DNA of 64,000 bases from Eledone cirrhosa (lineage: Eukaryota), in contig OZ024756.1 of the NCBI GenBank assembly GCA_964016885.1, forward strand, positions 23,064,001 to 23,128,000. Reading direction: 5' to 3'. Of this stretch, positions 32,548-59,135 are shown piece after piece. The position numbers were made by a program, and so were the translations under genes. How positions within the stretch are numbered: the first letter of the stretch is position 1; each line of letters begins with the position of its first letter. Below the pieces are notes generated by a model. It worked only from the letters and a program-made list of their open reading frames with translations. It searched no databases and was not told where the DNA came from.

Positions 32548-32730
32548 AAGAGGACAATGCGAAGTGAATATGTTAGGGTCCTTAATTAATTGAGCCGTTA
32601 TACATAGTTCAATGACGAGAGATATCGTGATTTCTTCAAACAGAAATCACGATATCTATCGTCATGGAAATATGTATAACGGCTCAATTAATTAAGGACC
32701 CTAACATCTTCAACCTCGCATTTTCCTCTT
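32548..32730. repeat. 183-bp fold-back palindrome next to (TA)n
   Basis: ~88-bp arms around a TTCAAAC loop; the right arm carries GAAATATGTA (HHR 3'-half-like) at 32667-32676. Confidence 0.85.
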
Positions 32731-32886
32731 TATAAATATACTCTGTCATCCTTCTTTTTAGGAAGTAATATGACATTGAGTGCTAGAAGTGAATTGTATT
32801 CTTGTATACCGAATGTATATATATATATATATATATATATATATAGTTTAGCGAGGTTTTTTATATGAAATCGTGTGTCGAAACAA

Positions 32887-33160
32887 ATATTGTTATACTT
32901 GGGGAGGGTCATATTTGTGTAATATTGCCAGAATTAATAACAGAATTAAATTATGTAAACTATATATATGTGTTTGTGTCTATATTGTATCTGTATTATT
33001 TTTGACCGTCGGTCAGTCAATGGCAACATTGAGGACCGAGTAAGTTAGATCGCAGATATAAAAGACAGCGAGAAGCGAAAACCAACCAAACAGTGAGTGT
33101 GTTCTGTTATTAATTCTGGCAATATTACACAAATATGACCCTCCCCAAGTATAACAATAT
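32887..33160. mobile_element. Element with 59-bp terminal inverted repeats (18120/40280 family)
   Basis: ATATTGTTATACTTGGGGAGGGTCATATTTGTGTAATATTGCCAGAATTAATAACAGAA is inverted at 33102-33160. Confidence 0.85.
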
Positions 33161-33200
33161 ATATATATATATATATATATATATATATATATAAGACAAG

Positions 33201-33367
33201 ACGAAGGCTAGATTTCATAATTTCTTTAATTATACAATAGCCAGGACGTATTTCTGTTGTCCGCATGACATAGATTGCCTCATGGTATCGTGATGTAGCC
33301 ATCTCACAACAGAAATATCTATTATGGTTAATGTGTAAATAAAGAAATTATGAAATCTAGCCTTCGT
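33201..33367. repeat. Imperfect fold-back next to (TA)n
   Basis: ACGAAGGCTAGATTTCATAATTTCTTTA is perfectly inverted at 33340-33367; the match extends imperfectly inward. Confidence 0.8.
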
Positions 33368-34324
33368 ATTTTTATATTGATGTATTTAACGCTGTCATAC
33401 GACACCAAATCAAAATTGATAGAATACATATAACGTTGAGTGCTTTTCCCATATTGAAGCATGATTTTCTTTATCACAGCACCTGCTACTATTTAGGAAA
33501 CACCCTATAACACATACGAACAGAGAGAGAGATGCGGGAAGAGAGAGACAAAGAGGTAAACATCTATAATGCCTAATATAAAAACGTGTGTGGTGTACGA
33601 ATGTGTGTTTAAAATGTTGCTTGTTTTATGCAATGATGTATACCAATAAACATTGTTTCTGTCAAGTTGTATTTCAACTCCAACCAGGCTGTCTTTCTCA
33701 AGCAACTTTATATTCAGGCAAAAAAGGTAAATTGCCACCAGCAATTTTATGGCTTACAAGTTTTATCGATAGTCTCATATGTCGCTTAATTATTGCCTGC
33801 CTGAAGCAATTATTTTGTAACAGCATTGTACTCTTTGGTTGGTTTATTTTTTATGCCTTGTATTTTTGCCAACGTTTCCTTATAGCTTTGTGAAATCGCA
33901 TTCAGTTTTCTCAGAATATAGTAGTTGTTTTTTTTTATTAAACTTCATACACTTAATATGTATGTGCTACATTAGGTTGCAGGCTGCAGTTATGGCTACC
34001 ACTGTAGGAATATATTGGATATCCTACATATGTGTGTGTCTGTCTGTGTATGTTTGTGTGTGTGTATATATATATATATATATATAACAGAGTGTTGTAG
34101 TTTGCATAAAGCATTGTTGAATAGGAAACAAATTTAAATAATTTTGAAAACCAAACAATGCACTAGAAAGATAATTAAAATTGCTAAGATTCTTTTGTTA
34201 TCTTAGCAATTTTGAAATGAATAGGGCCTTAATTCCTGGGGGAGTAGCAGAGGCGGCAGTGAAGGAGAGAGAAGAAGAACCGATCAGAGTACATTATTTA
34301 TCTACCGATACTGACAATCCTTAT

Positions 34325-34532
34325 AATAATGATTTCTAGTATAAGCACAAGGCCAGTAATTGGGGGGGGGGTGAAGTCGATTAAATCGACTCCAGTGAGT
34401 GACTGGTACTTTATTTTATCGACTCCGTAAGGATGAAAGGCAAAGTTAACCTTGGTGGGATTTGAACTCAGATCCTAAAGGGGCGTAACTCTATGCTGCA
34501 AATTATGGTGTCCGACTCTCTACCGATTCTTC
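34325..34532 (-). mobile_element. SINE family 1, long variant
   Basis: Reverse complement of the consensus. Confidence 0.9.
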
Positions 34533-55700: not shown

Positions 55701-56634
55701 AACAAAAATTCAGGGAAACATTAGGAACTTTGACAATTCTGAAACACGTGTGATAAGCATAAAATAGATGTAGATTTGAAAATAATTCCATTATTTCCAT
55801 CTCTCTTTATACTTTACTATATACACACACAGTATATTATATATATATATATATATATGCCCTAGACACGCCATATGACGGCGCCGCTAAGAATCCACAA
55901 GGAGTTATGGGATCTTTATCCTCTATATATTTATACATATATATATAAGATATTAATTCAACAATGAAAATAATAACAACAAAGTCAAGTTATTTTACTT
56001 ATTCATATCATTGTTTTACGATCGTTTCGGAGGGTTGATCATATACGGAATATATCTGCGAAAAGCTCGTAGTGCAGGCCATCCAAACCAAACAATTTGA
56101 CCCTTGTGTTGTTAGCCATCGCCTCCCGTATTATATTTCAGGGGCTGTTATTGGACTTCCGCAATAATTTGTCTCCACTGCCGAGAGTAGCAACAGGTGA
56201 TCTGTTGTAAGTACTGAAGTCCATCATGGGATCCGTAACACCTCTCGTCGCAAAAAAAAAAAAAAAAATCGAGCAAAATGCCGCTGTAAAACCACACACA
56301 TCTATTTGGAATCGTGTTGTACGCATTCACCGGGATCCTTCAAAGATTGGATTGTAGCTTTGGTGCCACGCTTCGTCTCTGTCACTCTGGCATCCTCAAA
56401 CGGCTTTCGTTACTTCGTGTCTTTAATTCTGGCAACGCTGCCGTCTTGCTTGGAGTTGAAGAATTAATTGGTCAAGGGTAAATTTCACCGCAAGCACGGA
56501 TTCCTCCATGTTTATAACTAGCTCTCCCGCTAATCTAGATTTCTCTATGGCTACTACCTTATTGTTATATCGATTCTAGTCGAATTCTTTTTTTTTTTTA
56601 AGTCGGGCCTAAACTTAACCCTAACCATAACAAC

Positions 56635-56755
56635 AATAATTATAACACGGACAACAGCAACAAGAACAGCAACAAGAACAGCAGCAAGAATAGCAACAAG
56701 AACAGCAACAAGAATAGCAACAAGAACAGCAACAAGAATAGCAACAAGAATAAGA
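56635..56755. repeat. (AACAGCAACAAG)n 12-bp minisatellite
   Basis: Seen directly. Confidence 0.9.
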
Positions 56756-57693
56756 AGTAGATAATACGTATATATAACGATGACATTTCTTTTTAGTGAG
56801 TTTAGCTAAAGGACCAATGAAATACAAAACTAACTCTAACATCAAAGTGATAATATAATAATACATAATAATGGCTTTTATGAAATAATGCTGGGAAAAA
56901 CAAGGCATGTACATTAAGAAACATACATATATTCCGTATATTCTTTACATTTTTTTTCTTTGTATGAGTATATCCTTATAATTATATAGAAGAATCGTAT
57001 ATATTTACGATAATATATATATATATATATATATATAGATATATATATATATATATATAGTGTGTGGGTAGTACAGTGAATTAATGGCGTTGGTACCAAA
57101 TCAAGCTCTATGCACAGGCAAAGTGTATATATGTAAACGAAACTATATATATATATATACTTATGGTTATAAAATGTTTACTAGAGAGGCTTGTGTATGC
57201 AACACACCAATGAGAGAAAAAAAGGATGCAATTAGGGTCAAGCACTCGACGTCATAAGTATCCTTCCAAATGCGATGTGTTAGTCATGCTGGAGTAGAAG
57301 TTCAATAATGATGCTTGCGAAGGTCAAATGTAGATATTTATAATTCCTTTAATTATAGTCAGCGGTAATACATATTTCAGTTCTCACCATTACGTGATGT
57401 TGTGATTAGGCAACCACCAACACGATTTCATCAGACAGCATCTTAGTTAATAAGGTTATTACCAAAATAAAAGAATTATGAATATCTACATCTGGTCTTC
57501 ACAGTTATGAGATATATATATATAACAGTTTGATTCTTATAATTGTTGAGCTGTCTTATAAAGCGTCCGAAACTATAATTACCTCAGAAGACAGCTGATG
57601 AGCGGAAATTGTCCTTGTGTTTATATCTTCGGTGCTTCCTATGTTTCTACTACGTATTTTATATATATATATATATATATATATATATATATA

Positions 57694-57975
57694 ATAAAGA
57701 AAACGGAAAATCAGTGATGCATCTGGACTTAGTTTATTTCGTGTTACAAATATTTCGCCGGCATGTAGCTCGAGTCATGGTCCTTGTATGGATCTGGCTG
57801 ATTCTACTTCTGCGGGTTCTTTCAGACACGGGTGTTATGTCCGGAGCAAATTTTATCACTTATGATGAAATTTGCTCCGGACGTAACACCATGACTCGAG
57901 CTACATGCCGGCGAAACATTTGTAACACGAAATAAACTAAGTCCAGATGCATCACTGATTTTTCGTTTTCTTTAT
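57694..57975. mobile_element. Asymmetric fold-back element with hammerhead
   Basis: Outer arms of ~87 bp; inner hairpin at 57831-57890; a ~50-bp segment present only in the left arm. Confidence 0.88.
57740..57830 (-). ncRNA. Type I hammerhead-like motif with long stem II loop (core variant)
   Basis: Minus strand reads CGTGT-CTGAAAGA-ACCCGCA..TGCCGGC-GAAA-TATTTG-TA-ACACG-AAATAAA. Confidence 0.6.
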
Positions 57976-58416
57976 AATATCTGCACTCTACTCTGATGAA
58001 TATCGAGTGCTAAGTTTGGCATACCGCCTATGGAAGCACCATAGCTACCACTATATACAACTAATATATATATATATATATAATATATATATATATATAT
58101 ATATATATATATATATATATATATATATATATATATATATATATATATGGGATAACAAGTTATCGTTATAGGTAATCCAGTTAGAGGTTGTGAGTACTCT
58201 GCATCGTGGATAGTTTTAACGTACGGCTTTGTTTGACAAGATGTTTCCATAGTTAGGCAACGAGTTCGCGGGAATTCCTATATAATGGAGATCGAGTGAC
58301 GCAGCTTCGAGCGATTAGAGGCCTCTAGACTCACCTGATCAATGAAACAATTGTTAATACCTGAAATAAAGCCCCTTGTTGTAGAGCCAACCATGTTACT
58401 CTTTCACTATATATAT

Positions 58417-59135
58417 ATATTTATTAAAATAACAGATTAAAGTTTAAGCAAAGAATCGCTGGTTTCGCCCTTCAGAAGATCCTGTTAAGGGTGAAAGCAG
58501 CGCGATTCTTTGCTTAAACTTTAATCTGTTATTTTAATAAATATTTTCTCTACGGTTCTTATATATCATTTTTTCCATTTATATATATATATAAATATAT
58601 ATAGTAATAATAATAAATTTGAAGACTAAAATCCAAAGAGGGCTCGATAAGGATAAATATATATCAAATATATAAGAACCGTAGAGCAAATATTTATTAA
58701 AATAACAGATTAAAGTTTAAGCAAATAATCGCTGGGATCTTCTGAAACTAATGTTATTTTAATATATATATATATACAGGTAAAATTTCATTATAACAAA
58801 TACTATTGTAACACATTTTTCAGTATAATGAAATCTTTTCTTTATAACCCGTGATCTCAAATAATTTTTAGTTACAACGAATTTTTTTTTTTTTTTTTTA
58901 TAACCCGTGAATTTCATTATAACGGAATATTACTGTCTATGTGTATATGTATATATATATAGTAATAATAATAAATTTGAAGACTAAAATCCAAAGAGGG
59001 CTCGATAAGGATAAATATATATCAAATATATAAGAACCGTAGAGCAAATATTTATTAAAATAACAGATTAAAGTTAAGGGTGAAAGCAGCGATTCTTTGC
59101 TTAAACTTTAATCTATTATTTTAATAAATATATAT
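58417..59135. mobile_element. Scrambled direct and inverted copies of the 52175 family
   Basis: Palindrome at 58417-58544; copies at 58605-58765 and 58962-59135. Confidence 0.8.
58777..58935. mobile_element. pogo/Tigger-like MITE remnant
   Basis: TA-CAGGTAAAATTTCATTATAAC ... TTCATTATAACGGAATATTACTG, with repeated (CG/CA)TTATAAC motifs. Confidence 0.55.

What the first reader, a model, noticed from the sequence alone, without database searches (positions are those of the whole stretch)
32548..58544. Recurring architecture: divergent fold-backs whose inversion point lies in or just upstream of the HHR
Seen: palindromes at 16771, 32548, 33201, 35182, 57694 and 58417 (also 32887 and about 35510) all have element 3' ends facing outward toward TA-rich flanks. 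At 35182 and 57694, one arm has the whole HHR and the other starts inside the stem II loop (at GAGCTC, and at a short ACC microhomology). At 32548 and 33201 only GAAA..UH-like 3' halves remain. Established: PLE insertions often carry inverted, 5'-truncated pLTRs. Inference: cDNA snap-back or template switching at the ribozyme hairpin, or twin priming in (TA)n, produces MITE-like hairpins from a retroelement.
Basis: inference. Interest (0 to 1): 0.75.

Follow-up and report, generated by a model that had tools for sequence, protein, structure and literature searches.

The report
Penelope fold-backs with conserved tail hairpin
These small DNA palindromes are real and are likely the truncated, back-folded ends of Penelope-type jumping genes, a known structure; their turning points are scattered rather than fixed at the ribozyme, but most carry on one side a conserved little hairpin that likely marks where copying starts or ends.

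Summary
The palindromes are real; 12 of 13 end flush in a (TA)n run (background 3%). [quoted passage not shown] Self-priming was already proposed for this (PMC3846280). The ribozyme-breakpoint idea is only partly supported: over 8 fold-backs the turning points lie from 71 nt upstream of the core to beyond the cleavage site; 3 of 8 are in stem II (P 0.14-0.40). At 57694 the centre is 35 nt upstream and the asymmetry is a 52-nt ACC-ACC deletion. 32548 and 33201 do turn at stem II, by homology to a new whole-HHR relative at 57434. One family (four copies near 52176-59131) shares its junctions, so that fold-back has spread as a unit. No parent RT was found. Known architecture, modest new details.

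The parts
16771..17099 (.). Symmetric fold-back, whole type I HHR on each arm (core at 16864 minus, 17006 plus); centre about 16935, 71 nt upstream of the core
17100..17194 (+). One-sided tail with bulged hairpin 17113-17140
32549..32729 (.). Fold-back centred 28 nt upstream of GAAA (32667), i.e. at the stem II position of relative 57434; HHR 3' half only
32730..32815 (+). One-sided tail, hairpin 32740-32784
32846..33159 (.). Fold-back with 58-nt arms and long spacer; spacer plus right arm is the part of the 18120-18645 element that begins at about its HHR cleavage site; 41-nt left extension without the hairpin
33198..33370 (.). Older fold-back centred 28 nt upstream of GAAA (33312); HHR 3' halves; relative of 57434
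33371..33445 (+). One-sided tail, hairpin 33389-33444 (one outer mismatch)
35183..35353 (.). Asymmetric fold-back: whole HHR on minus strand (core 35277, cut after 35219); short arm starts at GAGCTC 35286-35291, the same hexamer as 35244-35249 in stem II
35142..35182 (-). One-sided tail, hairpin 35176-35153 (GCTC/GAGC form)
35425..35585 (.). Weak fold-back 35503-35585 with tail on the left (hairpin 35496-35470, minus); no HHR found
45901..46210 (.).
57241..57515 (.).
57694..57975 (.). Fold-back centred at 57860-57861; atypical HHR on minus strand (core 57825); right arm lacks the 52 nt matching 57779-57830 (3-nt ACC homology)
57976..58065 (+). One-sided tail, hairpin 57985-58011
58417..58566 (.). 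Fold-back of a four-copy family, centre near GATC 58477-58480, tail cut short after about 30 nt; no foldable HHR
52176..52345 (.). Second copy of the 58417 family: same centre, deleted second arm, full tail (hairpin 52262-52310)
58604..58764 (.). Third copy: shares the CTGAAAC-TAAT deletion junction with 52176 but has the tail on the other arm (hairpin 58687-58639)
58962..59131 (.). Fourth copy: centre deleted, same arm-specific letters as 58417 and 52176, full tail
59300..59630 (-). Solo (not folded) element of the same class: whole HHR (core 59510) and tail hairpin 59403-59361
18120..18826 (.). Relative of 32887 with degenerate HHR (core 18428) and a convergent inverted duplication of its 3' end around a TA-rich centre

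Best explanation
The palindromes are likely short 3'-end insertions of several Penelope-like retroelement families (probably Hydra clade) in (TA)n, in which the new cDNA likely stopped early, folded back on itself at whatever hairpin or short homology was at hand and was copied into an inverted second arm that likely ends at a conserved tail hairpin. Shown: palindromes, TA target, HHR motifs, one-sided tails, the conserved bulged hairpin 2-18 nt past the tail-less arm end, scattered turning points. Inferred: target-primed reverse transcription starting downstream of the hairpin; snap-back of the cDNA 3' end (on stem II at 32548 and 33201, on GAGCTC at 35182, near the cleavage site at 57434 and 45967, well upstream at 16771 and 57694); resolution of the second arm by an endonuclease nick just before the hairpin; later deletions between short repeats (57694; 58417 family). 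Stem II is one convenient fold-back site, not the rule.
For: One-sided extensions at every fold-back and a TA-flush other end, 12 of 13, as published for PLEs (PMC8557442 Fig. 2 legend; PMC3846280). GAGTGCT 11 times, expected 3.3, 0 of 100 shuffles; HHR 3' half followed by it within 220 nt 7 times (6 elements), shuffle mean 0.02 (descriptor made after seeing the data). Bulged-hairpin descriptor: 8 hits with a 2-nt bulge, 0 with 1 or 3, shuffles mean 0.3, max 3 of 200; outer pair covaries A-T / G-C and inner stems differ between families. The same hairpin is seen by eye near the 3' end of Hydra-2_Amil and Hydra-2_Ajap (12-nt identity with the 35182 tail), loosely in Hydra-1_Crog; Hydra families insert in (TA)n, carry the HHR near the 3' end, and one has an inverted 5'-truncated copy. 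Family 57694 in public runs: 21 and 11 contigs continue past 57860 into other sequence, no skip joint for the 52-nt deletion, 3' ends go either into microsatellite or into a tail. Both arms of 57694 share alleles at 8 of 8 family-polymorphic sites checked, so one template. In 3 of 3 clearly asymmetric loci with a hairpin tail the tail is on the long arm (P 0.125). cDNA snap-back is observed for R2 (PMC11371274).
Against: No RT or GIY-YIG remnant in the window (0 of the 150 longest of 291 open frames), so the parent is not shown. Rfam finds no hammerhead; the 57694 core is atypical and is the common family form. 57694 has its deletion in the tail arm, which needs a later event. At 32887 the extension is on the short arm and lacks the hairpin. 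At 33201 the test of which strand holds native stem II failed (198 of 2000) and favoured the opposite strand (4 of 2000). Tail hairpins are individually weak (z -2.1 to +0.6; exact bulged register in 7 of 11 folds). One search did not even show the window's own joint, so its negatives are weak. Only one contig of 1620 laid had a strand switch.
Confidence: 0.6

Rival explanations
1. One reading: the ribozyme hairpin itself (stem II) is the preferred site of snap-back or template switch.
For: 32548 and 33201 are both centred 28 nt upstream of GAAA, where the stem II apex of relative 57434 lies (25-30 nt); 35182's short arm starts in stem II; one X2 contig switches strand from 57811 (stem II) to 57859.
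Against: 3 of 8 in stem II, P 0.14-0.40; 16771 and 57694 turn 71 and 35 nt upstream; three loci have an arm starting near the cleavage site instead; cut-to-arm-end distance is only 36-62 nt in 7 of 8, so detection forces arms to start near the HHR; 32548 and 33201 are relatives mapped through a diverged copy.
Confidence: 0.2
2. Two target-primed events, one from each nicked strand and each starting at one of two RT start sites (with and without tail), on two RNAs or one tandem RNA, joined at their truncated ends by microhomology.
For: Purified Anolis PLE protein cuts and extends both strands and starts at two internal sites that bracket the tail (PMC11167929); explains one-sided tails directly and tails on either arm.
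Against: Perfectly symmetric centres with 2-6 nt loops (16771, 32548, 57694) are not expected from two independent truncations; arms share alleles.
Confidence: 0.2
3. True MITEs or Helentron/DINE-like DNA elements that merely captured HHR-like text.
For: Short, non-coding, inverted repeats in TA; a 3' hairpin beyond one repeat resembles the second Helitron type (PMC8969392); the 58417 family has shared junctions and no foldable HHR.
Against: Ends are asymmetric; solo unfolded copies with HHR and tail exist (59510); family 57694 has no fixed centre; arms are 45-165 nt, not short asymmetric repeats; the hairpin matches Hydra PLE ends.
Confidence: 0.04
4. Post-insertion DNA repair: fold-backs and asymmetries formed later at fragile (TA)n-flanked copies, unrelated to reverse transcription.
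For: The convergent duplication 18549-18826 centres on TA-rich DNA; deletions between short direct repeats at 57694 and in the 58417 family; 35182 could be a GAGCTC-GAGCTC deletion from a symmetric palindrome.
Against: The second arm stops 2-18 nt before the hairpin in 9 of 9 measured loci rather than running into tail or flank, which points to an element-specific boundary.
Confidence: 0.08

Closest known systems
EN+ PLE insertion unit: pLTR, adjacent inverted 5'-truncated copy, one-sided 30-40 bp tail (PMC8557442; PMC3846280)
   Same: Head-to-head inversion with a palindrome at the junction, tail at one end, AT-rich target, self-priming proposed
   Different: Here no ORF, whole units of 130-430 nt, tails of about 35-120 nt, many families side by side
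Hydra-clade PLEs (PMC8557442, section 11 and files S1, S2, S7)
   Same: (TA)n target, HHR near the 3' end, 3-4 bp helix III with tiny loop, tail-less ends about 30-45 nt after the HHR, same bulged hairpin by eye in 2 of 6 consensus 3' ends
   Different: Stem II here is longer (36-61 nt in the fold-backs); no protein link shown; the passages read do not describe the hairpin or ORF-less fold-backs
Dual opposite-strand min-HHRs 100-700 bp apart in Schistosoma (PMC4209133)
   Same: Two HHRs on opposite strands, palindromic helix III, read as truncated PLEs (like 16771)
   Different: G10.1-C11.1 is not kept at 16771, 35182, 57434; helix III is larger than in min-HHRs
R2 cDNA snap-back 5' junctions (PMC11371274, PMC11331408)
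   Same: cDNA 3' end primes on itself and gives an antisense copy
   Different: R2 snap-backs do not end at an element-encoded tail boundary
Non-LTR retrozymes (10.64898/2026.07.22.740005)
   Same: Non-coding, type I HHR, related to PLE pLTRs
   Different: Retrozymes are head-to-tail tandems; these are single head-to-head folds

Membership tests
EN+ Penelope-like element insertion | RT plus GIY-YIG ORF in the parent element | not testable with these tools
   No genome held; no remnant in the window, as expected for short 3' pieces; parent not seen
EN+ Penelope-like element insertion | Type I HHR with short palindromic helix III in the terminal repeat | tested here: met
   16771 both arms, 35182, 57434, 59510 by descriptor; atypical at 57694; absent at 58417, 35510; no Rfam hit; cleavage untested
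EN+ Penelope-like element insertion | Inverted 5'-truncated copy, head-to-head | tested here: met
EN+ Penelope-like element insertion | Tail extension at one end only | tested here: met
   longer than the published 30-40 bp at most loci
EN+ Penelope-like element insertion | Variable 5' truncation with fixed 3' ends | tested here: inconclusive
   Family 57694 depth falls about 29-fold from 3' to 5' in X1 and 3' ends cluster at 57697-57701, but divergence also lowers depth and the tool says depth is no copy number
Hydra clade | RWK, DKT and CxCX5C protein motifs, no CCHH | not testable with these tools
   No coding sequence in these pieces
Hydra clade | Insertion into (TA)n | tested here: met
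   12 of 13 versus 3.3% background; not unique to Hydra (Naiad too)
Hydra clade | HHR close to the 3' end | tested here: met
   cut site 36-62 nt from the tail-less end in 7 of 8; compare
MITE (TIR DNA transposon derivative) | Symmetric fixed ends, both flush with the target duplication | tested here: not met
   One-sided 26-146 nt or longer gaps to the TA run at all 13 loci
MITE (TIR DNA transposon derivative) | Same internal structure in family copies | tested here: inconclusive
   Not met for 57694 (low sensitivity); met in part for the 58417 family
MITE (TIR DNA transposon derivative) | Cognate transposase | not testable with these tools
   No genome; no Pfam hit in the window
Helitron type 2 / DINE-like | Short asymmetric terminal repeats and hairpins at both ends | tested here: not met
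   Arms 45-165 nt, hairpin at one end only; definition from PMC8969392
Non-LTR retrozyme | Tandem head-to-tail units each with an HHR | tested here: not met
   No tandem HHR units among the hits

The most novel reading that the evidence does not exclude
The bulged RCTC/GAGY hairpin is a clade-wide RNA signal of Hydra-type PLEs that positions RT initiation and endonuclease resolution, so that any sequence ending in it, including a fold-back, can be retro-mobilised; the 58417 family is such a fold-back that now spreads as an ORF-less, MITE-looking retroelement.
Probability: 0.3. Interest if true: 0.65.

Novelty: new member of a known kind. Interest (0 to 1): 0.38.

Why it matters
How PLEs make their inverted repeats and one-sided tails is an open question (PMC8557442, PMC11167929). 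These minimal insertions strip the unit to HHR, 3' end and tail, and give two handles: a conserved hairpin sitting exactly between the two kinds of 3' end, which can be mutated in an in vitro PLE assay, and thousands of natural fold-back junctions that could separate snap-back from double priming. They also warn that such elements will be filed as MITEs or miRNA hairpins by automatic annotation. The architecture itself is published, and the ribozyme-hotspot claim is not established.

Tried and rejected
Genome-wide breakpoint map: no genome held. Rfam: no hammerhead family matched, only miRNA/snoRNA noise below gathering and a 5S hit. Loose 'GAAA..UH' is worthless alone: 0.59 per 100 nt per strand; the 3' halves were accepted only through homology to 57434. 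A two-box weight matrix for the tail was poor overall (55 hits at threshold 12 versus 61 in shuffles); held-out tails scored well at 33201 and 35510, weakly in the 58417 family (about 3% of null), not at 35182 (about 15%) or 32887. Native-strand test at 33201 and 32548 not significant. The held-out hairpin at 12715 has no clear HHR or fold-back upstream. Three tail rows were cut out of register and redone. Pfam: 150 of 291 open frames scanned, two sub-threshold unrelated hits. No RNA holder listed. Earlier notes: nothing by place or sequence. Literature on the tail hairpin or PLE-derived MITE-like units: not found in searches; subscription papers (Arkhipova 2006, Evgen'ev and Arkhipova 2005, Pyatkov 2004) were not seen, nor the supplements of the Anolis paper or the 2026 preprint, which may show the structure.
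Full report
Setting. The window is AT-rich animal-type DNA (34% GC), dense in microsatellites and SINE-like repeats. The host was not identified; a cephalopod is my guess from recall. No genome is held, so the work rests on the window, one read-mapping of public runs and papers.

Observation. Self-comparison confirms the named palindromes and adds 45967-46210, 57305-57515 and three further copies of the 58417 family. One end is within 5 nt of a TA run in 12 of 13 (background 3.3%). A strict type I hammerhead descriptor finds both arms of 16771 and a solo copy at 59510; looser scoring and free folding add 35182 and, atypically, 57694. 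Rfam finds none. The element at 57434 has a whole HHR and is homologous to 32548 and both arms of 33201 (0 of 300 shuffles each), which rescues their 3' halves. The 58417 family and 35510 have no foldable HHR; 32887 is the part of element 18120-18645 downstream of its degenerate HHR.

Where the turns lie. Relative to C3 of the core (long arm start / short arm start): 16771 -71/-71; 57694 -35/-35; 35182 -14/+28; 32548 +28/+28; 33201 +28/+28; 57434 -18/+63; 45967 -67/+72; 32887 +26/+182. The values for 32548 and 33201 are mapped through 57434, and those for 57434, 45967 and 32887 are read from diverged alignments, so they are good to about 10 nt. Three of 8 involve stem II (P 0.14 or 0.40 under two uniform nulls); 5 of 8 short arms start inside the HHR (P 0.07 or 0.43). 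Because the cleavage site is only 36-62 nt from the arm end in 7 of 8, any arm long enough to notice must begin near the HHR. At 35182 a switch at GAGCTC and a deletion between two GAGCTC cannot be told apart.

Family evidence. On 57694-57862, 869 and 751 contigs and 1187 and 1081 reads were laid. Twenty-one and 11 contigs continue beyond 57860 in other sequence, no skip joint matches the ACC deletion, and 3' ends at 57697-57701 run either into microsatellite (152 reads in X21) or into a tail (76 reads). So this centre and deletion are not family-wide, against a fixed MITE. The window's own joint was not seen either, so sensitivity is low. The two arms agree at 8 of 8 polymorphic sites checked and differ at 2 sites where the left arm has a private change: one template. 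The 58417 family behaves differently: 58417 and 52176 share the centre, 58417, 52176 and 58962 share arm-specific letters, and 52176 and 58604 share a derived deletion junction while carrying the tail on opposite arms. Flanks differ, so this fold-back has been copied as a unit; whether by retrotransposition or local duplication (three copies lie within 720 nt) is open, and the tail swap is unexplained.

The tail hairpin. GAGTGCT occurs 11 times (expected 3.3; 0 of 100 shuffles), seven of them in tails of these elements (16771, 32548, 33201, 45967, 57434, 57694, 59510). The structure is a 4-bp RCTC/GAGY stem, a 2-nt 3' bulge and an inner stem of free sequence: 8 hits versus 0.3 in 200 shuffles, none with a bulge of 1 or 3 (descriptor built after seeing the data). 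The outer pair is A-T in some families and G-C in others, and tail-bearing reads of family 57694 show by eye an inner stem with a G-C pair where the window copy has A-T (loose ends at 57698). The tail-less arm ends 2-18 nt before the hairpin in 9 of 9 loci measured. Folding energies are weak one by one, and 32887 lacks the motif. In the six Hydra consensus sequences of PMC8557442 the hairpin is visible by eye near the 3' end of Hydra-2_Amil and Hydra-2_Ajap, loosely in Hydra-1_Crog, and at the 5' start of Hydra-1_Ajap; the other 3' ends stop about 30-45 nt after the HHR, like the tail-less arms here. This was not computed.

Mechanism. Most likely (0.6): target-primed reverse transcription in (TA)n from a start downstream of the hairpin, early stop, snap-back of the cDNA at an available hairpin or microhomology, copying of the second arm, and resolution just before the hairpin; later deletions blur some loci. 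All these steps are inferred. Rivals are a true stem II hotspot (0.2, a special case of the same route), double priming from both strands (0.2), later repair (0.08) and DNA transposons (0.04).

Known versus new. The architecture is published: inverted 5'-truncated copy and one-sided tail (PMC8557442, passages, section 11, supplement parts 2, 52, 53); head-to-head palindromic junctions read as self-priming (PMC3846280, abstract and passages); opposite-strand HHR pairs (PMC4209133, parts 1-2 of 4); two RT starts bracketing the tail and HHR cleavage dispensable in vitro (PMC11167929, parts 1-2 of 4); R2 snap-back (PMC11371274, PMC11331408, passages); retrozymes from PLEs (10.64898/2026.07.22.740005, part 1 of 5); MITE and Helitron definitions (PMC8969392, passages). 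I found no description of the tail hairpin or of spreading PLE fold-backs in searches, which miss subscription papers. Formal membership in the Hydra clade needs the protein, which was not seen.

Verdict. Observation partly confirmed, interpretation partly supported; new members of a known kind with two testable extras. Interest 0.38.

Noticed in passing
window 4984-5099 +: 5S rRNA match above Rfam gathering (65 versus 38 bits) with damaged stems; probably a pseudogene or 5S-derived repeat
   Followed up: no
window 22734-25468: Tandem array of about 165-nt units, 92-98% alike, related to 49971-50071; no HHR core found
   Followed up: partly
window 10782-62472, many copies: Abundant SINE-like family, with tandem and inverted clusters at 26951-31363
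   Followed up: no
window 55300-55632 +: 110-aa open frame that looks like a hAT transposase remnant by recall; no Pfam hit
   Followed up: partly
window 40280-40705 +, 46330-46540 -: Solo TA-flanked elements with HHR-like motifs (cores 40509, 46456) and no tail hairpin; 40280 shares its last 25 nt with the arms of 32887
   Followed up: partly
window 12620-12800 +: Old solo element with a clean tail hairpin at 12715-12743 and only traces of an HHR
   Followed up: partly
window 51705-51790 and 52115-52165: Pieces of the 35510 family on either side of a 300-nt microsatellite stretch
   Followed up: partly
window 27446-27558: Palindrome (74%) with neither HHR nor tail hairpin
   Followed up: partly
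run X2, laid on window 57769-57821: One contig repeats 53 nt of stem II in tandem, almost the same span as the 52-nt deletion in the window copy
   Followed up: no
window 40905-40940 +: Minimal hammerhead-like motif seen by eye, core with one change
   Followed up: no
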